From: a virus
Length of the DNA stretch: 40,325 nucleotides
UHGV virus genome: UHGV-0382853
Direction: 5' to 3' (one strand)
Below, piece by piece: positions 16,471 through 40,194 of this stretch. The number at the start of each line of letters is the position of its first letter. Positions within the stretch are counted from its first letter, which is position 1. The position numbers and the translations under genes are program-made. The notes below the pieces were generated by a model. It was not told the DNA's origin. It saw only the letters and a program-made list of their open reading frames with translations, and searched no databases.

Positions 16471-16547
16471 GTGGCATTAGCTCAGTTGGACAGAGCAACC
16501 GCCTTCTAAGCGGTTGGTCGCAGGTTCGAATCCTGCATGCCACGCCA
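16471..16547 (+). tRNA. tRNA-Arg (anticodon TCT, reads AGA)
   Basis: Cloverleaf by eye: acceptor stem gtggcat/atgccac, anticodon loop cTTCTAAg, T-arm ggttcgaatcc, 3' CCA encoded. Confidence 0.85.
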
Positions 16548-16745: not shown

Positions 16746-17117
16746 ATGAACGACCAGCAAATCGAAAAAGAAATCGTTGAGAAAGGCAAAACTGCTCCGC
16801 GCGTTACGCCAGACCATATCGAAAGCATTATTGCTCAGGAGGCATATTTCACAGCAGAGGATGGTGCCTTTGGCAAAGCCATAAAAGCGAAACATACTGG
16901 CGGAGAGGTAAACTACCAGCCGCACGAATCACTTTCTCTGCTGACGTTCTGCGTCCTGGTGCTGCGCAACGGCTTCACCGTCACCGGAGAGAGCGCCTGT
17001 GCAAGCCCGGAAAACTTTGATGCAGAAATTGGTCGGAAGATTGCCCGGCAGAATGCTGTAAACAAAATCTGGATGCTTGAAGGTTACTTGCTGAAGCAGA
17101 AGTTAAGCGAGCAATAA
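16746..17117 (+). CDS. Gp49-like phage protein (Phage_gp49_66 family), moron
   Basis: 123 aa; N-terminal MNDQQIEKEIVEKGKTAPRVTPDHIE pattern typical of this family; opposite strand to flanking late genes; has its own SD. Confidence 0.55.
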   Translation: MNDQQIEKEIVEKGKTAPRVTPDHIESIIAQEAYFTAEDGAFGKAIKAKHTGGEVNYQPHESLSLLTFCVLVLRNGFTVTGESACASPENFDAEIGRKIARQNAVNKIWMLEGYLLKQKLSEQ

Positions 17118-17137
17118 CACCGTGACATGTCATAAAC

Positions 17138-17164
17138 AGCCAGCCTATGAGCTGGCTTTGTTTT
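17138..17164. terminator. bidirectional terminator between Gp49-like gene and terminase
   Basis: agccagc-ctatga-gctggct followed by ttgtttt; A-rich on the other side. Confidence 0.5.
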
Positions 17165-17207: not shown

Positions 17208-18683
17208 TTAAGCATAGGGATCGTAATCTGTAATGGCCTTGCCTTGCTGGTTCTGCTGCCCGGGAAGTCGCAGGCGCTTTGACACCGGGAAAGCAAACGT
17301 CAGCAGTAGCGCATCGCCTTTACCAGGAGAACGCCCAAGACGCTCTTTGATATCTTCCTTCGGTTCGATAACGATTTTACCGTCCACACGAACTTTGTAC
17401 TCTGCCGCCGACAGGTCGTCTGCAGTTTCCTGGTCATCCAGCATGCCGCCCAGCCTCAGCCATGTCTTACATGAGTTGAACATCTCCCCACGCTTGTTAA
17501 GCATCTGCGGGTCAGTGGACGCACCGCCGAACGGAACAAGTTGCCATGTACGCCCCCAGCCATCACCGATTGACTTCAAACCGGTTCCGTAACCGAAGTC
17601 GATGAACACCGCGTCAGCCTGATACTGGTCTTCAAAGTCAGCGATACGCTTCGCCATTATCAGATCGTCAGTGGTCTTGTTGCCAGTCCACAGCACCTTA
17701 CTGTGCAGCCCCTGCCGCAGGTATATCACAGCGTCATCAACTCCGGAGTATGCCGGGTCAACGCCGATTATCACCGGAGCATGTGCAACCTGCGCAGCGG
17801 TTACCACCCGTTTCATTGCCTCATCAGTAAGACCGGTAGGGATAAACTGCAATTCAGATGCATCAGGGAATATGCCGCGCACACGGATTTTAACGAAGTC
17901 GCTGTCTTCCCCGTAGTCATCAACCCATTTCTGCAACTGCTGTTTGTTAGTGCCTTCCACCGTCCGGCTGTCAATCTGCGCAGTTTTCCAGCGGTGTTTG
18001 TATTTGCGGAAACATTCGCGAAAACGCCCGGTGTTACGTGTAGGGTTTCCGAACGCCACCCAGATAATCTCAGTGTCTTCGTCCGTTAGCGCACCCTCGG
18101 CAACTTCCCACACCAGATCCGCAATGTTCGACGCTTCATCGAATACCACGATGATGCGTTTGCGCTCGTTGTGTAGTCCGGCGAATGCCTCAGTGTTGTG
18201 CTCAGACCAGGGGATTGCGTCAGCTCGCCACCGTTTGTCGTGCCCAGGATCATTGCTGTACATCGCGGTAGCGGTACAGGTAAACCAGTCTTTCGTGATA
18301 GCAAGGTTCGACCACTTGATAATTTCCGGCCAGGTCTTCGTTCGTAGCTGGTTGTCGGTGTTGGCGGTCACCACGACCTTACAATCCTCGCAAGTGGACA
18401 TGCCCCAGTTGATCAGCATTGAGATGAATGCGGATTTACCAATACCGTGACCAGAAGCGCGTGCCAGCATAAGCGGCTGATAGCGCGTCTCTGGATTCTG
18501 CAGGTGATCACGTATCTCTCTGAACGCATCGGCCTGCCACTGACGTGGACCGGTGGCATGTGCCAGTTCAGTACCCTCTTCCCCCCACGGGAACGCATAG
18601 AGGGCATAGCCAAGCGGATCGTGAGTGAACCCTGCAATATCCTCGATTAACTGCTCTTCAGGAGATAACGCTGTATCTGTCAC
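17208..18683 (-). CDS. terminase large subunit
   Basis: 491 aa; Walker A-like ASGHGIGKS; GTG start overlapping the small-subunit stop. Confidence 0.85.
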   Translation of the reverse strand: MTDTALSPEEQLIEDIAGFTHDPLGYALYAFPWGEEGTELAHATGPRQWQADAFREIRDHLQNPETRYQPLMLARASGHGIGKSAFISMLINWGMSTCEDCKVVVTANTDNQLRTKTWPEIIKWSNLAITKDWFTCTATAMYSNDPGHDKRWRADAIPWSEHNTEAFAGLHNERKRIIVVFDEASNIADLVWEVAEGALTDEDTEIIWVAFGNPTRNTGRFRECFRKYKHRWKTAQIDSRTVEGTNKQQLQKWVDDYGEDSDFVKIRVRGIFPDASELQFIPTGLTDEAMKRVVTAAQVAHAPVIIGVDPAYSGVDDAVIYLRQGLHSKVLWTGNKTTDDLIMAKRIADFEDQYQADAVFIDFGYGTGLKSIGDGWGRTWQLVPFGGASTDPQMLNKRGEMFNSCKTWLRLGGMLDDQETADDLSAAEYKVRVDGKIVIEPKEDIKERLGRSPGKGDALLLTFAFPVSKRLRLPGQQNQQGKAITDYDPYA

Positions 18684-19276
18684 TGATTGCCATCCTGACG
18701 TTCTTTCAGTCTCTTCCTGGCTGCCGCTATGCGATCAGCAATTGTCACATTCACATTAACATCCAGGCGTTCTTTGAACGCGTTGACGTCGACGTGCTTA
18801 CCAATCAGTTCGAGGTTCTTCACCTTGTCAGGCCATTTAATTTTTTTGAGGATTGTCTCTATCGAATCCTCGTCCATGTTCATGATGGTAGATGACAGAT
18901 CAAAGCCACTAAGCGTAGTGCGCCAGATTTTCGGCCACTCGCGGATTGGCTTAAGGCTTCCATCGTCGTTGAGGATATCAATCACGTCCATCTGGTCGAT
19001 CTCCACCAGGCGCATGAGAACGTAATCAGCACTGACGCGCATTCGTTTGTTGCGCTCCTCCATCAACTCGGCAATCCGTTTTTGAATGCGTTCATCGCGC
19101 ATCATGACACTGGCTTTAACTGCCGCTGTATTTGGGGAGAATCCTGCGTTAATCGCAGCCTGACTCTGGTTTTCAGGCGTTTTGATGTATGACTGGCAAT
19201 AAGCCTCCTGCATTGCTGTGAGCGGCTTAAATTGCGTTGATTTGCGTTTATAGGTTTTAGGTTCAGCAGGCATCAT
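18680..19276 (-). CDS. terminase small subunit
   Basis: Start moved to ATG 19276 (MMPAEPKTYKRK...) with GGGTGG SD; the track N-terminal extension is discarded; sits directly upstream of the large subunit. Confidence 0.65.
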   Translation of the reverse strand: MMPAEPKTYKRKSTQFKPLTAMQEAYCQSYIKTPENQSQAAINAGFSPNTAAVKASVMMRDERIQKRIAELMEERNKRMRVSADYVLMRLVEIDQMDVIDILNDDGSLKPIREWPKIWRTTLSGFDLSSTIMNMDEDSIETILKKIKWPDKVKNLELIGKHVDVNAFKERLDVNVNVTIADRIAAARKRLKERQDGNQ

Positions 19277-19293
19277 AACCACCCTGGTAATTG

Positions 19294-19308
19294 TTACCGT
19301 CGTGGTAA
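19294..19308. promoter_or_regulatory. TTACC-N5-GGTAA palindrome immediately upstream of terminase small subunit
   Basis: ttaccgtcgtggtaa between the terminator hairpin and the terminase start. Confidence 0.5.
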
Positions 19309-19320
19309 TAGTAACATGCA

Positions 19321-19345
19321 AAATAAAGCCGCCATAGTTGGCGGC
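19321..19345 (-). terminator. rho-independent terminator preceding the late (terminase) operon
   Basis: Hairpin gccgcca-tagt-tggcggc with T-tract on the minus strand (plus-strand aaataaa). Confidence 0.55.
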
Positions 19346-19394
19346 AGTATTCAAAACCCATCAAATTCATCATGCATAATCTACTCGTGACATG

Positions 19395-19733
19395 TCACAC
19401 TATTAATTTCGTTTCATGCCAGCCTTTAGTCACCCAGCATTGCGAGTCACCATTGCACGGGCATGAATTAACTGGAACTCTCTCGCCGCACTTACCGCAA
19501 CGTTTTCTGCTGATCGATTTTATACGCCCGCGCACGCGTGCATCATCCTGGCGGATCAGTAACGCTATATACTCACCAAATTCGTAAGGCGCACGCCCGG
19601 GGCGACGCGTGGCACAGTTACGCTCCAGCATTTCAATTTCCTGAGCATCAAGCACAATCTCCAGCTTACGTACACCGGATGCAGCTTGTCTGGCTCTCTG
19701 AGCGGCTTTGCGCTCTGCTGCTGATTTAGCCAT
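19395..19733 (-). CDS. zinc-ribbon protein, candidate late-gene regulator
   Basis: 112 aa; C-terminal CGKCGER...CPCNG...C cysteine cluster; last gene before terminator and terminase; AGGAAA SD. Confidence 0.4.
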   Translation of the reverse strand: MAKSAAERKAAQRARQAASGVRKLEIVLDAQEIEMLERNCATRRPGRAPYEFGEYIALLIRQDDARVRGRIKSISRKRCGKCGERVPVNSCPCNGDSQCWVTKGWHETKLIV

Positions 19734-23126: not shown

Positions 23127-23927
23127 TTACTTGATAAATCCTGCCGCCTTTCCCCGCCTGTATTCCTCCATCAGCCACTGCGCCGGTGTTATTCCCCCAA
23201 GGGTGGCGGCGTTAGGCATGCACCCGAAACTTCTCCCTGGTGGATGGTAAACGTCTCTCCCTGTGCCCGGAGGTGTACTCATGGGCTCTGGCTTTGCCTG
23301 TATGCTGATCACCGGATCGGGTATCTGCTGTCCGGAAGCCACCTTTTTCGCCCAATCATCGAGCAGCCTGCGCGCGTGTTTCTCAACCTCAATCTCGCTA
23401 AGCTGGCGCTGATACATTGCACGGCGGGTATCACATACGACCCAGTACATAACCGGATGTCGCCACGGGAATCTTTCGGGACCACCAGGATATAAACTTT
23501 TTTCCTTGCTGTACCGGTGAAACTCCGCCATCACATCGTCAATGGTGACGCCAAGAACCATCTTGCTGTCTTTACACCACTTGATGAATTGCCCTGGCGA
23601 CGGCCAGAACGGAGACTCACTGGCGCGGGCGTGGCGCATACCAGCAGAAACCTGTTCACGGGTTCGGATCCCCCCTTCGGCAAACGCAGCAATCCACTGC
23701 TGTTTTGCAGCAACTTCCTGCTCTGGCGTCTTCAGGTTGGTTACCACTGCCGCCGGAAACAGTTGTTTCAGCTGTTTGAAAAGGGCATCAACAAGCCTCT
23801 CTGCTGACATGTTCACCACATTGTCATTGTTGACGTACTGATGCTCATAACCTGACATGCGAGAAAGGGCTTCTCCGTCACGGTTTTGTATCGCGGTAAA
23901 AACGTTGTTCACAAGAAATCCTCCCAT
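23127..23927 (-). CDS. replication protein P-like (helicase loader)
   Basis: Block WIAAFAEGGIRTREQVSAGMRHARASESPFWPSPGQFIKWCKD closely parallels the lambda P motif W..AF.E.GI.T.EQV.AGMR.AR....PF.PSPGQF..WC. Confidence 0.8.
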   Translation of the reverse strand: MGGFLVNNVFTAIQNRDGEALSRMSGYEHQYVNNDNVVNMSAERLVDALFKQLKQLFPAAVVTNLKTPEQEVAAKQQWIAAFAEGGIRTREQVSAGMRHARASESPFWPSPGQFIKWCKDSKMVLGVTIDDVMAEFHRYSKEKSLYPGGPERFPWRHPVMYWVVCDTRRAMYQRQLSEIEVEKHARRLLDDWAKKVASGQQIPDPVISIQAKPEPMSTPPGTGRDVYHPPGRSFGCMPNAATLGGITPAQWLMEEYRRGKAAGFIK

Positions 23928-24724
23928 GCTTCAGGGCTGTTCCAGTGCGGAACGTTGTTATCAGGTAATGTTGATTGCTTCTGTCTGCTAATCTGCAGCC
24001 GCCTTGCCAGCTTCTGCTCCCACTGTGCCTGATGGTATGCCTTACCCTCAGCCATCCAGTAAATTCTGAACTCTGCAAGTTCCTGTGCCGTTGGCAGACT
24101 GTCCAGGTAGATCCCCTGCAATGAGCTTTTCCGAAGAAAGTCATCTGATGGCTGCCATTGTTCATGCATGACAAATTTGCCTAATTGCCCTGGCCCACCA
24201 GGAGGAACAAAGTTATTCATCACGGCGTTGTTTGCGTTGGGGTCATGATGCACAGAATCCCCGTTTTTTGTCCTGCTCTCCCTCTCTTGGTTAAATGACT
24301 GGTTATATGACTGGTTCTGGATCCCGTTTTTGGGATCATTCAACATCCCGTTTTTGGGATCATTCAACATCCCGTTTTTGGGTATATTCCCGCTTTCGGT
24401 AACATTACCGTTTTCGGGTTCATTACCCCCTTCCCGGTTGCCTTTAATGTTCCCTTTTTTGGTTATATTAAGAGAGAAAACCCGTACTCTTTTCGTCGCC
24501 CCCTTTCTCTCTCCGGTATCTGAAATAAGCCCCATTTTCATGAGCGATATAAGCCCGGCCTGCACGGTTTTTTTATTCAGGCAAGTGTCTTTAACGAGGC
24601 GTTCTATGCTGGGGTAGCAGAGGTTATATTCATCGGCTCTGTCAGCCATCGAGAGCAGTATGAGCTTTAATGATGAGCTACCTGGATCTGTCTCCCAGGC
24701 CCAATCTGTTGCATGTCTGCTCAT
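23909..24724 (-). CDS. replication initiator O-like protein
   Basis: N-terminal winged-HTH-like domain; central peptide repeats (PKNGMLND x2-3) coincide with DNA iterons; overlaps the P-like gene; GGAGAT SD. Confidence 0.7.
   Translation of the reverse strand: MSRHATDWAWETDPGSSSLKLILLSMADRADEYNLCYPSIERLVKDTCLNKKTVQAGLISLMKMGLISDTGERKGATKRVRVFSLNITKKGNIKGNREGGNEPENGNVTESGNIPKNGMLNDPKNGMLNDPKNGIQNQSYNQSFNQERESRTKNGDSVHHDPNANNAVMNNFVPPGGPGQLGKFVMHEQWQPSDDFLRKSSLQGIYLDSLPTAQELAEFRIYWMAEGKAYHQAQWEQKLARRLQISRQKQSTLPDNNVPHWNSPEAWEDFL
24321..24480. repeat. replication origin: 24-bp-period iterons with dyad ATCCC-N6-GGGAT plus adjacent AT-rich tract, inside the O-like gene
   Basis: atcccgtttttgggat at 24321 and 24345, degenerate copies at about 24369 and 24405, then tttttt/ttatatta AT-rich stretch. 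Confidence 0.65.
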
Positions 24725-25357: not shown

Positions 25358-25372
25358 TCACCTATAAGGTAA
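25358..25372. promoter_or_regulatory. operator-like palindrome in immunity region
   Basis: tcacctataaggtaa (one-mismatch variant). Confidence 0.45.
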
Positions 25373-25475: not shown

Positions 25476-26060
25476 ATGAAAAGTATCCAGGACGTCCGCA
25501 GGCAAAATCTCAACGACTTGATCGACCGTGAATTCAATGGTGTTCAGACGCGGATGGCTGAAAAACTTGGAACTCAGGCAAATCTGGTAAACCGCTGGGC
25601 TCTTGGCAAGAAGGTTATCGGCGACCAGGTTGCGCGAAAAATTGAAGCTGCCGCCAATAAACCCCGTAACTGGCTTGATATCGATCGCTCGCTTTCTCAG
25701 GAAGGTTTTCAGCCTGTCGGACCAAGCGACATTGGTCAACTGGCGGCTCACAACCTGAAACGCTGGATGAGCGAAAGCCGCGACCTTTCAACGCAGGGAA
25801 AACTTCACCGCGCATCCGGCGTCGCCCAGGTAACAATCAGTCGCCTGTTAAACAATGAGGTCAGCGTTTCCATTTCCACCCTGGAGAATGTTGCATCCGC
25901 ATTCGGGCGTCACGGCTATGAATTACTGATTCACCCGCACGACCCTGCGACCATCAACTATGACCGCTCGCGCTACGCATTGTTACCCGAAACCGAGAAA
26001 GCAAAGATCGAAAGTTACATTGAATTTGTCATCAACCAGAACGAAAAAAACAAACAATAA
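25476..26060 (+). CDS. phage repressor, tandem-HTH type with no recognisable peptidase (autocleavage) domain
   Basis: 194 aa; two HTH-like segments (QTRMAEKLGTQANLVNRWALGKK and LHRASGVAQVTISRLLNNEVS); no S24-like Ser/Lys motifs seen; divergent from cro-like gene. Confidence 0.6.
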   Translation: MKSIQDVRRQNLNDLIDREFNGVQTRMAEKLGTQANLVNRWALGKKVIGDQVARKIEAAANKPRNWLDIDRSLSQEGFQPVGPSDIGQLAAHNLKRWMSESRDLSTQGKLHRASGVAQVTISRLLNNEVSVSISTLENVASAFGRHGYELLIHPHDPATINYDRSRYALLPETEKAKIESYIEFVINQNEKNKQ

Positions 26061-36622: not shown

Positions 36623-36638
36623 GGCCGCAAGAGCGGCC
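36623..36638. terminator. bidirectional terminator hairpin
   Basis: ggccgc-aaga-gcggcc flanked by T-rich sequence on both strands; between convergent genes. Confidence 0.5.
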
Positions 36639-37366
36639 TATCGTTTCGCTTTGTGCTCGTCCCAGCACGTTTTGCACCATGCCATTAAGCCATCCGCATT
36701 TTGATTATTAGGGTAAAAGCTTGTTCGTTTTCTGCGGACATTACAAATTGGGCACCACTTCATATGGCGTGTATTCTTTGGGCCATCGAGACACCTTGCA
36801 CACCACTTAGTCAATCCATCTGGATTTTTTGACGATTTCCTGAATTTTTCATATGGTAGGTTTATTCTGCATCGCAAGCACTGCTTGCTACCACTTGAAA
36901 CTCTGTTAGCTGATTCTTCTTTTGGCGGCGATACAGAAGGTATTCTTGCTGGCTCTGATACTGCCTGAGGTGCTTTTTTAGATGACTGAGACGATATGTC
37001 ATCACCAGGGAATCTTCCATGATATGCCGGACGCATTGACACTCCAGGTGGAAGCTCAGCTGTAAACGGCTTTGGCTGAATCAGTTGCCTCTCTTTTGCT
37101 AACTCCTGCTGTTTATAATATGTCTGGATTACCGCACTATCATAAGCAGGAGGTGCGGAAATATTAGGCGCATTACCTCCAGTTTTTTGAAACTGAGTAG
37201 AGGTGTGTTCTATCACCTGTGTACGATTAATCGTTATCTCCCCATCTTCGGTCTTTATCGTTTTGTTATGATTAACGACCGTACGATCAGAGATCTTAGT
37301 CTTGTTCTGGTTGATAACGTAAATAATCACCGCAACCACACCAACAACTATCCAGAAAACTTCCAT
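36638..37366 (-). CDS. membrane-anchored protein with duplicated C-terminal zinc-ribbon (CxxC-N-CxxC x2)
   Basis: 242 aa; N-terminal TM helix (FWIVVGVVAVIIYVI); C-terminal repeats C.RC...DGL..WC..C; GAGGAAAA SD. Confidence 0.5.
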   Translation of the reverse strand: MEVFWIVVGVVAVIIYVINQNKTKISDRTVVNHNKTIKTEDGEITINRTQVIEHTSTQFQKTGGNAPNISAPPAYDSAVIQTYYKQQELAKERQLIQPKPFTAELPPGVSMRPAYHGRFPGDDISSQSSKKAPQAVSEPARIPSVSPPKEESANRVSSGSKQCLRCRINLPYEKFRKSSKNPDGLTKWCARCLDGPKNTRHMKWCPICNVRRKRTSFYPNNQNADGLMAWCKTCWDEHKAKR

Positions 37367-37494: not shown

Positions 37495-37585
37495 ATTTAC
37501 ATTGCACTCCTCTTGTGCCATAGTAATCGGGCACTGGCAAAATCCAGTGCCGGGATTGGTCTCCCGGATTACTAAGTGGCGCATA

Positions 37586-37607
37586 CCACGCCAGACGTGG
37601 TTTTTTT
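37586..37607 (+). terminator. rho-independent terminator inside the antirepressor leader
   Basis: ccacg-ccaga-cgtgg followed by ttttttt. Confidence 0.55.
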
Positions 37608-37765
37608 ATGCGTATAGCACAGTCATGCCAGAATTATGGTGGGCTGAATGGGGGTCCGAAAGGACGCCGGTACCACTTAGGCCGGTAAGACCAACTCCGT
37701 TCAGTTCACCACCATCTGATTGGTCTCAGCGGTGGTGATGTAATTCGCTAAGTGGAGACGCCATC

Positions 37766-38422
37766 ATGAACGCTCAACTCATCCCCGTATTCAACGGCAC
37801 TATATCTAACGAAACAGCCCTACTTTGTAATGCCCGCGATCTGCACACTTTTTTAGGTGTTAAAAAGGTGTTTGCAGCATGGATTACAAATCGCATATCA
37901 GAATACGAATTCATTGAAAATCAAGACTATATTTTGCTTTCCAATTTGGGAAAGCAAACATCTGGTAGAGGCGGCCACAACCGCAAAGAGTACCACCTCA
38001 CCCTTGATACAGCCAAAGAGCTGGCGATGGTCGAGCGTAACGAAAAAGGTCGCCAGGTGCGACGCTACTTCATTGAATGCGAGAAACGTTTAAGACAACA
38101 AGAAACAAAAGTGGAGAAGGTCTTGTCAGGCTTCATGCCCGCCATTATGGAGGCGATCAAGCTGGAAGACAAAAAAGAATACAGCGCCCCACTGAAGCCC
38201 GGCTACCGCAGCCTGATTCATTCTCCGTCTGGTGTTCTCGGACTGACGGAGAACTCACTGCTGATGAATCTGCTGAACCAGTTACAGGAAGACGGGCACG
38301 ACGTATCGGGCGCGGCGGCGGAGCTGACCACCATGTTCTGCTACATCGTCGGTGTGAGCAAATGCCTGCGTGATATCCAGACGCACGCGGAGTACATCAA
38401 CGACAAGGCAGGGTTCTTCTGA
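37766..38422 (+). CDS. antirepressor (AntA/AntB N-terminal domain)
   Basis: 218 aa; N-terminal IPVFNGT...LCNARDLHTFLGVKKVFAAWITNRISEYEFIENQDYIL typical of AntA domain; C-terminal domain paralogous to the 36358 product. Confidence 0.7.
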   Translation: MNAQLIPVFNGTISNETALLCNARDLHTFLGVKKVFAAWITNRISEYEFIENQDYILLSNLGKQTSGRGGHNRKEYHLTLDTAKELAMVERNEKGRQVRRYFIECEKRLRQQETKVEKVLSGFMPAIMEAIKLEDKKEYSAPLKPGYRSLIHSPSGVLGLTENSLLMNLLNQLQEDGHDVSGAAAELTTMFCYIVGVSKCLRDIQTHAEYINDKAGFF

Positions 38423-39866: not shown

Positions 39867-39871
39867 AAACA

Positions 39872-39889
39872 AGGCCGCGAAAGCGGCCT
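39872..39889. terminator. hairpin between convergent genes
   Basis: aggccgc-gaaa-gcggcct, near-identical stem to the hairpin at 36623. Confidence 0.4.
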
Positions 39890-39897
39890 GTGACATG

Positions 39898-40194
39898 TCA
39901 CGTCCCTTTTCTGAATGATAGCCATTCGAAAAATGATGACATTCCACCGCAGACAATAGCAAAGATGATCCCACCAAAGAAGAGAAGGCCAGCCTGCCAC
40001 CACTCCCACCGCCATACATCCACAGCGCCAACCATACCAACAATCGCTCCAACAAATGGAATATAGCTCACGATGAAAGCAATGGGGGCTGCAATTATCC
40101 AGTGCAATCCCCACCATGATTCAAGCCCAGCCATAATTGCTGCCAACTGAAAAAGACCAACGACGATATAAACAATGAATCCTATAGCTTGCAT
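39898..40194 (-). CDS. small membrane protein
   Basis: 98 aa, 3 predicted TM helices, Trp-rich; AGGTGA SD. Confidence 0.45.
   Translation of the reverse strand: MQAIGFIVYIVVGLFQLAAIMAGLESWWGLHWIIAAPIAFIVSYIPFVGAIVGMVGAVDVWRWEWWQAGLLFFGGIIFAIVCGGMSSFFEWLSFRKGT

What the first reader, a model, noticed from the sequence alone, without database searches (positions are those of the whole stretch)
19294..19733. Zinc-ribbon protein, then a terminator and an operator palindrome, directly upstream of the terminase genes: candidate late-gene switch
The last gene before the late operon encodes a 112-aa protein with a C-terminal Cys cluster, the position that Q-type antiterminators occupy in lambdoid phages. 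A hairpin with a minus-strand T-tract (19321-19345) and a TTACC-N5-GGTAA site separate it from the terminase small subunit start.
Basis: inference. Interest (0 to 1): 0.4.

Follow-up and report, generated by a model that had tools for sequence, protein, structure and literature searches.

The report
Phage DNA-binding protein with own palindrome

Summary

- **The operator.** TTACC-N5-GGTAA is one of 15 dispersed copies of the prophage repressor operator (0.66 expected by chance). It overlaps a conserved extended -10 promoter for terS (TGnTAYTAT, 19316-19308).
- **The protein.** It is not Q-like. It is predicted to have a ribbon-helix-helix fold plus a Cys4 knuckle (phrog_536; epsilon15 gp49 / N15 gp46 family, no Pfam family). 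Close homologues (77-81% identity) sit in lambdoid prophages that also carry a true Q gene.
- **A missed element.** A 12-bp palindrome, GTGACATGTCAC (19387-19398), overlaps the gene's stop codon. GTGAC-NN-GTCAC is about 100-fold enriched in loci that carry a homologue. It nearly always lies at the homologue's stop codon. Its central bases partly co-vary with beta-strand residues 23 and 25, so it is the likely binding site.
- **Association with terminators.** The palindrome is often followed by an intrinsic terminator.

Best reading: a portable gene-site-terminator cassette that gates read-through at operon junctions. That mechanism is inferred, not shown.

The parts
19395..19733 (-). Gene for the 112-aa ribbon-helix-helix + Cys4-knuckle protein (phrog_536; epsilon15 gp49 / N15 gp46 / ZF40 gp22 family). 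It is the last gene of the early-right operon.
19387..19398 (.). Perfect palindrome GTGACATGTCAC overlapping the gene's TGA stop codon. It is the probable binding site of the 112-aa protein (copy A).
   Evidence: It is invariant across relatives while the adjacent codons vary. 233 GTGAC-NN-GTCAC sites occur in 2.32 Mb of homologue-bearing loci against 2.2 expected, mostly at the homologue's stop codon. The central bases partly co-vary with residues 23 and 25.
19351..19377 (-). 8-codon remnant (ATGCATGATGAATTTGATGGGTTTTGA) of a roughly 60-codon small ORF that about one third of close relatives carry between the palindrome and the terminator. This is a variable cargo slot.
   Evidence: Relatives have either a 129-nt or a 315-nt spacer between the palindrome and terS. 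Klebsiella relatives carry a gene with a LexA-box promoter in the same place.
19320..19345 (-). Intrinsic terminator ending the early-right operon: stem-loop 19345..19328 plus U-tract 19327..19320.
   Evidence: -15.8 kcal/mol, z = -5.15. Conserved in epsilon15, PAT1 and KpST512. Annotated as a rho-independent terminator in epsilon15.
19308..19316 (-). Predicted extended -10 promoter of terS (TGTTACTAT). The start site is predicted near 19301/19300.
   Evidence: TG-n-TA-[C/T/G]-TAT is fused to the operator in every lineage, including those whose upstream sequence is unrelated. Only the 'n' and the third hexamer base vary. Consensus and conservation only; no start-site data.
19294..19308 (.). 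Prophage-repressor operator O1 (TTACCGTCGTGGTAA), covering about -7 to +8 of the terS promoter.
   Evidence: The equivalent epsilon15 site (12-27) is annotated as repressor-binding.
19276..19290 (.). Second operator copy O2 (TAACCACCCTGGTAA, 1 mismatch), 18 bp from O1, overlapping the terS Shine-Dalgarno sequence and start codon.
   Evidence: The same 18-bp tandem arrangement is present in epsilon15.
18680..19276 (-). Terminase small subunit gene, the first gene downstream of the junction.
   Evidence: Pfam Terminase_2, E=3.4e-29; annotated as terS in relatives.
17122..17133 (.). Palindrome copy B (GTGACATGTCAT, 1 mismatch), between the terL stop codon and the antisense gene 16746..17117, 4 nt from hairpin 17138-17157.
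   Evidence: Exact copies occupy the same post-terL position in epsilon15 and many relatives.
39890..39901 (.). Palindrome copy C (exact), overlapping the TGA stop of the minus-strand gene 39898..40194 and 1-2 nt upstream of the minus-strand terminator at about 39868-39887.
   Evidence: -13.8 kcal/mol. epsilon15 has the equivalent site at 19517 before its annotated terminator.

Best explanation
The locus is the junction between the early-right operon and the packaging operon of a Uetakevirus (epsilon15/phiV10-like phage). It holds two separate control systems.

**A. Repressor-controlled terS promoter.** terS has its own extended -10 promoter (TGTTACTAT, 19316..19308) immediately after the terminator. 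Two tandem operators of the prophage repressor (TTACC-N5-GGTAA at 19294 and 19276) occlude it. The same operator occurs 15 times across the genome. What the tools show is the motif family and its conservation; repression itself is inferred.

**B. A gene-site-terminator cassette.** The last early gene encodes a dimeric ribbon-helix-helix protein with a basic N-terminal helix and a C-terminal Cys4 knuckle. It most likely binds the 12-bp palindrome GTGAC-NN-GTCAC, with the beta-sheet reading the centre of the site. One copy lies on its own stop codon, 39 nt before the terminator. Two more lie at the ends of the terminase operon and the structural operon. What is shown: fold prediction, site enrichment, the position rule, and partial co-variation between residues and bases.

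**Inferred mechanism.** Gene, site and terminator form a portable cassette. Once enough protein has accumulated, it occupies the site next to the terminator and changes how much transcription passes the junction. The most likely direction is relief of termination, which would make the cassette a delay gate between early genes and whatever lies downstream: terS here, and ninB...Q in lambdoid relatives. The direction of the effect and any contact with RNA polymerase are not shown.
For: **Identity of the phage.** megablast and annotation of relatives.

**System A (repressor and terS promoter).**
- 15 operator copies against 0.66 expected.
- Copies lie on both sides of the repressor gene at 25476..26060 (sites 25358, 25406, 26118, 26180) and just upstream of int, terS, the antirepressor gene and the tailspike gene.
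- The epsilon15 record annotates the same motif as 'repressor', including the site at 12-27 before terS.
- TGnTAYTAT is fused to the operator in all lineages, and only the non-critical positions vary.

**System B (the protein and its palindrome).**
- 115 sites in 1.27 Mb against 1.2 expected, then 233 in 2.32 Mb against 2.2 expected. Lambda, which lacks the gene, has none.
- A site lies within about 30 nt of the homologue's stop codon in Uetakeviruses, lambdoid prophages, ZF40 and N15.
- Residues 23/25 = K/E go with a central AT or AG. E/R go with GC or AC in 3 lineages, including the later-fetched locus L175. R/D go with CA in 2 independent lineages of 73% and 34% identity.

**Link to terminators.**
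- 16 of 44 distinct site contexts have a strict terminator motif within 60 nt, against 116 of 1500 random positions.
- Several unrelated hairpin sequences follow the palindrome at the homologue's end.
- Close homologues lie in the order gene - palindrome - terminator - ninB - Q.

**No competitor.** No other regulator or Q-like gene is found in the window's early-right operon.

**Possible polymerase link.** Profile similarity of residues 49-110 to the TraR/YbiI DksA-type zinc finger: hmmsearch E = 0.012-0.023, hhalign probability 52-68%.
Against: - Nothing here measures binding or transcription.
- 28 of 44 site contexts have no detectable terminator nearby. Some sites lie inside genes (the phrog_2479 gene; N15 repA). 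Others lie just upstream of promoters (N15 immA promoter; LexA-box promoters in Klebsiella prophages) or 19 nt before start codons (Vibrio K233).
- The distance from palindrome to terminator at this junction is not fixed: about 23 nt in epsilon15, 39 nt here, and about 225 nt in relatives with the inserted ORF.
- terS has its own promoter, so no read-through is needed to express it.
- Co-variation is not strict: K/E proteins also occur with AG and CC centres. The number of independent lineages per class is small.
- I know of no described double-stranded-DNA-site-directed antiterminator that acts at operon 3' ends.
- The TraR-like similarity is below significance. No Pfam PF01258 hit was obtained and Foldseek does not recover TraR.
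Confidence: 0.45

Rival explanations
1. The 112-aa protein is the functional equivalent of a lambdoid Q antiterminator. It acts through the hairpin and the TTACC-N5-GGTAA site to switch on the late operon.
For: - It is the last early gene before terS, with a terminator in between.
- No other late regulator is recognisable in the phage.
Against: - The predicted fold is RHH, not Q, and there is no Q-family hit.
- Q needs a binding element inside a promoter upstream of the terminator. The only upstream candidate (GTGACA-18-CATGAT) lies in a deletion remnant and is not conserved.
- TTACC-N5-GGTAA is the 15-copy repressor operator.
- Homologues of 77-81% identity coexist with true Q genes.
Confidence: 0.07
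2. The protein is an ordinary promoter-proximal RHH repressor or activator of neighbouring accessory or antirepressor promoters. In this window the target gene has been deleted, so copy A is largely a relic and its nearness to a terminator is incidental.
For: - In Klebsiella prophages the palindrome ends 7 nt upstream of the -35 of a promoter that carries a LexA box.
- In N15 a copy lies 24 nt upstream of the -35 (TTGACG) of the leader and promoter region before gene 32 of the antirepressor operon.
- RHH proteins are typically repressors (named family knowledge: Arc, Mnt, CopG, MetJ).
- The window keeps only an 8-codon remnant of the small ORF found in relatives.
Against: - None of the three copies in this window, nor those in epsilon15, is next to a recognisable promoter. 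All three are next to hairpins.
- The site stays exact and in place in lineages that lack any downstream cargo gene.
Confidence: 0.2
3. The protein is architectural. Dimers bound at the two or three palindromes bridge them, as MatP bridges matS sites. They loop or mark the phage genome, or act preferentially in cis because the site lies at the end of the protein's own gene. The purpose could be packaging, replication or protection from host DNA-organising complexes.
For: - The half-sites GTGAC/GTCAC are the same as in matS, GTGAC[AG]N[TC]GTCAC (PMC3603311, PMC3116907).
- There are only 2-3 copies per genome, and copies A and B flank the terS-terL module.
- Some sites lie inside genes, where transcription control is unlikely.
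Against: - No sequence homology to MatP: hhalign probability 1%.
- The site is 12 bp, not 13 bp.
- No oligomerisation domain has been identified.
- The family occurs in cos, pac, integrating and plasmid prophages alike, so one packaging or partition role is unlikely.
Confidence: 0.12
4. The bound protein is a roadblock or insulator that strengthens termination in both directions at operon ends. It would keep early, late and antisense accessory transcription units apart.
For: - The site is symmetric.
- Copies B and C sit between convergent transcription units, next to terminators.
Against: - A lytic-phase protein that blocks passage from early genes toward nin/Q in lambdoid relatives would work against lytic development.
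- No data bear on the direction of the effect.
Confidence: 0.12

Closest known systems
Lambdoid Q antiterminators (lambda Q, 82 Q, 21 Q) with PR'/tR'
   Same: The gene lies at the distal end of the early operon, and a terminator stands between it and the genes it might switch on.
   Different: The fold is unrelated (RHH, not Q). There is no conserved promoter with a binding element upstream of the terminator. The candidate site is a palindrome on the gene's own stop codon. Close homologues coexist with true Q genes.
Ribbon-helix-helix regulators (P22 Arc and Mnt, CopG, MetJ, TA-system antitoxins)
   Same: Predicted beta-alpha-alpha fold. The target is short and palindromic. Residues on the beta-strand track the central base pairs.
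   Different: It has an extra basic N-terminal helix and a C-terminal Cys4 knuckle. Its sites are not at its own promoter but at its own stop codon and at other operon ends. No Pfam RHH model passes threshold.
MatP / matS of Enterobacteria
   Same: MatP is an RHH DNA binder. Its target has identical GTGAC...GTCAC half-sites and occurs in few, dispersed copies.
   Different: The spacer is 2 bp, not 3 bp. There is no MatP four-helix bundle or coiled coil. hhalign probability is 1%. This is a resemblance, not membership.
DksA/TraR C4 zinc-finger proteins (PF01258), including phage and plasmid TraR
   Same: Shared pattern C-x2-C-G-x2-[LI]-P ... G-x3-C after a long helix. Best PDB profile hits are YbiI and TraR.
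   Different: E-values are only 0.012-0.023 and probability 52-68%. The fourth Cys is displaced. The preceding helix is part of the RHH core rather than a free channel-inserting helix. No Pfam hit.
epsilon15 / SPC32H-type prophage repressor operators; conceptually the dispersed C1 operators of phage P1
   Same: TTACC-N5-GGTAA lies on both sides of the repressor gene and is scattered in front of many operons, including terS. The epsilon15 record annotates it as repressor-binding.
   Different: Nothing differs materially: this part is already known for epsilon15. The comparison with P1 rests on my own knowledge.
RinA-type late activators encoded just upstream of terS in Gram-positive phages (PMC3152322)
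   Same: The regulator gene lies immediately before terS (abstract listed).
   Different: No sequence relationship. The candidate site is not at a fixed activator distance from the terS promoter: about -92 here, about -74 in epsilon15, and about -278 in relatives with the insert.
Lambda N acting at tR2 in front of the nin region
   Same: In lambdoid relatives the cassette's terminator sits in front of ninB...Q, so a factor relieving it would do the same job (the lambda map is established knowledge).
   Different: N is an RNA-binding arginine-rich peptide that loads at nut sites near promoters. Here the element is a double-stranded DNA palindrome next to the terminator.

Membership tests
Q-type antiterminators | Sequence or structure membership in a Q family | tested here: not met
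   No Pfam, NCBIfam or PDB sequence hit. PHROG places it in phrog_536, not in the Q-like phrogs that match true Q genes in relatives. The predicted fold is RHH.
Q-type antiterminators | A binding element within a promoter, followed by a promoter-proximal terminator | tested here: not met
   The conserved promoter lies downstream of the terminator. The upstream consensus match GTGACA-18-CATGAT lies in a deletion remnant and is absent from relatives.
Q-type antiterminators | Makes RNA polymerase terminator-resistant | not testable with these tools
   Needs in vitro transcription or reporter assays.
Ribbon-helix-helix DNA-binding proteins | Beta-alpha-alpha fold forming a dimer | tested here: met
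Ribbon-helix-helix DNA-binding proteins | Sequence match to RHH family models | tested here: inconclusive
   Only weak hits: NCBIfam LexA-regulated protein E=0.052. One or two of 61 members match each of RHH_5, RHH_1 and RepB-RCR_reg at E=0.013-0.071.
Ribbon-helix-helix DNA-binding proteins | Beta-strand residues read a short symmetric DNA site | tested here: inconclusive
   Co-occurrence is about 100-fold over chance, and residues 23 and 25 partly co-vary with the central bases. This is computational only, and K/E proteins tolerate both AT and AG centres.
DksA/TraR C4 zinc finger (PF01258) | CxxC-x17-CxxC finger after a long helix, with a family HMM match | tested here: inconclusive
   C79-x2-C82-x16-C99; the fourth ligand is probably C91 rather than at +3. 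hmmsearch against PDB sequences E=0.012-0.023. hhalign probability 52-68%. No Pfam hit in any of 61 members. Foldseek does not recover TraR.
MatP / matS | MatP domain organisation and sequence homology | tested here: not met
MatP / matS | 13-bp site GTGAC[AG]N[TC]GTCAC | tested here: not met
   The phage site is 12 bp, GTGAC-NN-GTCAC. The matS consensus is taken from PMC3603311.
Ogr/Delta late activators of P2-like phages | Ogr_Delta zinc finger; sole late activator of the phage | tested here: not met
   No Pfam hit. Yersinia P2-like phage YenM_42.18 carries the homologue as well as a separate small regulator gene in the ogr position after gene D. The position rule rests on my own knowledge.
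Prophage repressor operator family of epsilon15-like phages | TTACC-N5-GGTAA palindrome, repeated on both sides of the repressor gene and at other promoters | tested here: met
   15 copies against 0.66 expected. Copies at 25358, 25406, 26118 and 26180 bracket the repressor gene. The epsilon15 annotation agrees. Binding was not tested.
Intrinsic (rho-independent) terminators | G+C-rich hairpin followed by a U-tract on the transcribed strand | tested here: met
   Termination efficiency was not measured.
Extended -10 promoters | TGnTATAAT-like element that is sufficient without a -35 element | tested here: inconclusive
   TGTTACTAT here. TG, T1, A2, T4, A5 and T6 are invariant across the lineages sampled, while n and hexamer position 3 vary. 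No start-site data.

The most novel reading that the evidence does not exclude
A new kind of transcription gate. A ribbon-helix-helix/zinc-knuckle protein binds a double-stranded palindrome placed on its own stop codon and at other operon ends, immediately upstream of intrinsic terminators. From there it locally suppresses (or sets) termination, possibly touching RNA polymerase through a TraR/DksA-like finger. The gene-site-terminator trio would be a portable delay timer shared by epsilon15-like, lambdoid, N15-like and other phages. It would be mechanistically distinct from N, Q, put RNA and RfaH.
Probability: 0.2. Interest if true: 0.8.

Novelty: new variant of a known kind. Interest (0 to 1): 0.55.

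Why it matters
How epsilon15-like podoviruses time their late genes has not been described in anything I could find. These phages are common E. coli and Salmonella prophages, and some are used as reporter and typing phages.

The analysis separates two layers of control:
- a repressor regulon of about 15 operators that reaches the packaging promoter directly;
- an uncharacterised regulator family with no Pfam domain, labelled 'hypothetical' or generically 'transcriptional regulator', now paired with a precise predicted DNA site and predicted specificity residues.

The protein-site pair is conserved across very different phages: Uetakevirus, lambdoid prophages, N15-type plasmid prophages, Pectobacterium phage ZF40, P2-like Yersinia phages and Vibrio phages. 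That makes it directly testable. If it gates terminators, it would add a new mechanism to the classic list of phage antitermination systems. If it does not, it is still a clean new specificity family of RHH proteins.

Tried and rejected
- **Known families.** Q, Ogr and other known regulator families were searched by Pfam, NCBIfam, PHROGs and PDB sequence. Only phrog_536 matched.
- **Upstream promoter.** A promoter upstream of the terminator (GTGACA-18-CATGAT) would have given a lambda-PR'-like layout. Rejected: it lies in an 8-codon deletion remnant and is not conserved.
- **RNA pairing.** A long-range pairing that encloses the terminator was predicted. It was not pursued: it would span more than 200 nt in relatives with the insert, and the palindrome has only a 2-nt centre, which does not suit an RNA hairpin.
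- **MatP homology.** Rejected by hhalign, despite the matS-like half-sites.
- **TraR/DksA relationship.** Still inconclusive after building a TraR alignment. The word-indexed search returned only close TraR relatives.
- **'gp46' in a telomere-phage lysogen proteome** (PMC12042878). That gp46 is a cB-like repressor, not this family.
- **Literature.** No paper contains GTGACATGTCAC. The primary epsilon15 and SPC32H papers are not held. The ZX5 paper does not address late regulation.
- The search for related loci with the full alignment failed because it is too divergent. AFDB50 was unavailable. Foldseek against PDB and BFVD was uninformative beyond one RHH protein and a fragment of the same protein.
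- **Palindrome as an activator site for the terS promoter.** Rejected because the distance varies, at about -74, -92 and -278.
Full report
**What the window is.** The region matches Uetakevirus genomes (epsilon15/phiV10-like: vB_EcoP_ZX5, TL-2011b, phiV10) at 93-98% identity. Early-right and late genes run on the minus strand in this order:
- a cro/cII-like gene, then the replication initiator and helicase loader;
- a DUF1064 resolvase, Ea-like genes, DUF551 and NinX;
- the 112-aa ORF, terS, terL, then the portal and structural genes.

**Check of the observation.**
- ORF 19395..19733 (minus strand) encodes 112 aa with a C-terminal Cys cluster.
- The hairpin GCCGCC-AACTAT-GGCGGC plus TTTATTTT (19345..19320, minus strand) is called by the terminator scan. 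It folds at -15.8 kcal/mol, z = -5.15.
- TTACCGTCGTGGTAA is at 19294-19308.

**The 'operator palindrome' belongs to the prophage repressor.**
- TTACC-N5-GGTAA occurs 15 times in the window with at most 1 mismatch, against 0.66 expected.
- Copies bracket the repressor gene at 25476..26060 (sites 25358, 25406, 26118, 26180). Others precede int, the DUF1064 gene, the tailspike gene, the antirepressor region and terS.
- The GenBank record of epsilon15 annotates the same motif as 'repressor; lysogeny' at seven places. One is at 12-27, immediately before terS.
- In the window and in epsilon15 a second, weaker copy lies 18 bp downstream, over the terS ribosome-binding site and start codon.

**terS has its own promoter.**
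- The operator is fused to TGTTACTAT, an extended -10 motif (TGnTAnnnT).
- Across close relatives and more distant lineages the motif reads TG[T/G/A]TA[C/T/G]TAT. Only the two least critical positions vary.
- It persists where the sequence upstream is unrelated and no terminator is present.
- This predicts a -35-independent promoter at 19316..19308, a start near 19301/19300, operator O1 over -7 to +8, and O2 over the leader.
- This rests on consensus and conservation only. It means that read-through of the terminator is not required to express terS.

**The protein.**
- It has no Pfam family and belongs to phrog_536, labelled 'transcriptional regulator'.
- Its homologues include epsilon15 gp49, N15 gp46 and ZF40 gp22.
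- The family is small: 154 representative clusters at E <= 0.001 among 1.84 billion proteins.
- An AF2 model built on 61 diverse homologues has pLDDT 91.5. It shows a basic helix (5-19), an extended segment (22-28), helices 30-42 and 52-74, a Cys knuckle (C79, C82, C91, C99) and a final helix.
- A family profile searched against PDB sequences gives as its best hits YbiI and TraR, which are DksA-type zinc fingers, over residues 49-110 (E = 0.012-0.023). hhalign gives 52-68% probability. I treat this as a lead only.

**It is not a Q equivalent.**
- ZF40 and N15 carry separate Q-like genes.
- A Yersinia P2-like phage has the homologue as well as a small regulator in the ogr position.
- Homologues 77-81% identical to the window protein sit in lambdoid prophages in the order homologue - palindrome - terminator - ninB - (ninG) - Q-like antiterminator.
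- The window's own early operon has no Q-like gene.

**The missed element: the protein's probable binding site.**
- The perfect palindrome GTGACATGTCAC (19387-19398) overlaps the ORF's TGA stop. It is invariant in epsilon15, PAT1 and Klebsiella relatives, although the last codons differ.
- A second exact copy (39890-39901) and a one-mismatch copy (17122-17133) lie at the ends of the structural operon and the terminase operon. An exact 12-mer is expected about 0.002 times per genome. epsilon15 has three exact copies at the equivalent places.
- The unrelated Pectobacterium myovirus ZF40 has three exact copies, one of them 2-3 nt after its homologue's stop. N15 has three copies of GTGAC-CA-GTCAC, one on the stop codon of gene 46. 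Vibrio phage K233 has GTGAC-AC/GC-GTCAC.
- In 71 homologue-bearing IMG/VR loci there are 115 GTGAC-NN-GTCAC sites against 1.2 expected. In 158 loci there are 233 against 2.2 expected, and most loci have a copy within about 30 nt of the homologue's stop codon. Lambda, which lacks the gene, has none.
- The residues predicted to face DNA on the RHH strand track the central dinucleotide:
  - K23/E25 go with AT (73 distinct proteins) or AG (23);
  - E23/R25 go with GC or AC in three lineages, including locus L175, fetched later for this test;
  - R23/D25 go with CA in two lineages that are 73% and 34% identical to the window protein.
- The co-variation is imperfect and the number of independent lineages is small. 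Together with the enrichment and the position rule, it still makes a cognate protein-site pair the most economical reading.
- No held paper contains the motif.

**What the pair might do.**
- In this window and in epsilon15 all three copies are next to hairpins. Copy A is 39 nt upstream of the early-operon terminator. Copy C is 1-2 nt upstream of the structural-operon terminator. Copy B is 4 nt from the terminator of the antisense gene after terL.
- Across 44 distinct sequence contexts, 16 have a strict terminator motif within 60 nt, against 116 of 1500 random positions. Several unrelated hairpin sequences follow the palindrome at the homologue's end.
- In other phage types the palindrome lies on the scaffold gene's stop codon, before the terminator that precedes the major capsid gene.
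- I therefore favour a portable gene-site-terminator cassette that modulates read-through at operon junctions. Relief of termination is the biologically sensible direction, giving a delay gate toward terS here and toward nin/Q in lambdoid relatives.
- This step is inference. Counter-evidence:
  - many sites have no terminator nearby;
  - some sites lie inside genes (the conserved C-D-M-S codons of phrog_2479 proteins; N15 repA);
  - some lie just upstream of promoters (the N15 antirepressor operon; LexA-box promoters in Klebsiella prophages);
  - some lie 19 nt before start codons in a Vibrio phage;
  - the spacing at junction A varies from about 23 to about 225 nt because the slot accepts cargo genes, and the window keeps only an 8-codon remnant.

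**Verdict.**
- The Q-type interpretation is not supported.
- The operator, and the repressor control of terS that it implies, is already annotated for epsilon15.
- What appears new is the regulator-palindrome pair, with predicted specificity residues and a recurrent link to terminators.
- Novelty: a new variant of a known kind (an RHH regulator).
- Interest: 0.55.

Noticed in passing
window 16134, 19276, 19294, 23013, 23075, 25021, 25358, 25406, 26118, 26180, 31405, 36267, 37387, 37480, 38496: There are fifteen dispersed copies of the repressor operator TTACC-N5-GGTAA. Several lie 3-21 nt before the start codon of the first gene of an operon (DUF1064 gene, terS, the 37366 gene, the 38514 ORF). 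This suggests a single-repressor regulon that covers early, late, int and antirepressor promoters.
   Followed up: partly
window 37531-37716 (+), upstream of 37766-38422 (+): Rfam finds isrK (Hfq-binding RNA, 67.7 bits) and a C4 antisense RNA (61.2 bits) in tandem, just upstream of an Ant-type antirepressor gene. Two repressor operators (37387, 37480) precede them. This is a P1 immI-like antirepressor control region inside a podovirus.
   Followed up: no
window 16471-16547 (+) and 16746-17117 (+): A tRNA-Arg(TCT) gene and an N4-gp49/Sf6-gp66-family gene lie antisense to the late operon, between terL and the portal cluster. Terminators bracket them, and a TTGACA promoter overlapped by operator 16134 precedes them.
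   Followed up: partly
window 24288-24427: Iteron-like tandem repeats (24 bp x 2.6 at 100% identity; 18 bp x 3.1; 12 bp x 2.4) lie inside the replication-initiator gene 23909..24724. This is a probable origin of replication, as in lambda O.
   Followed up: partly
window 19351-19377; loci L016, L020, L051 and others: About one third of near-identical relatives carry a 186-bp insert with a roughly 60-codon ORF between the palindrome and the terminator. Klebsiella relatives carry, in the same place, a small gene or a UmuD-like gene behind a promoter with a near-consensus LexA box (TACTGTTTAAATATACAGTA).
   Followed up: partly
L092 (ZF40) 5125; L101 1312; L136 944; L098 1985: The exact palindrome is embedded in the codons for a conserved C-D-M-S motif of phrog_2479 proteins of unknown function, in ZF40 (gene gp08, minus strand, among the genes between the cI-like repressor gene and the integrase) and in several enterobacterial prophages. 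DNA-level conservation across proteins this divergent suggests that the site is selected in its own right.
   Followed up: partly
L098 15501 and 16115; L097 16195: In another group of prophages the palindrome lies on the stop codon of the scaffold-like gene, before the terminator that precedes the major capsid gene. In L098 two copies flank an inserted 190-aa ORF.
   Followed up: no
window 36638-37366 (-): A 242-aa protein (phrog_6762) has two C-terminal Cys-rich repeats resembling endonuclease VII / Lar-like zinc modules. A repressor operator lies 21 nt upstream of it.
   Followed up: no
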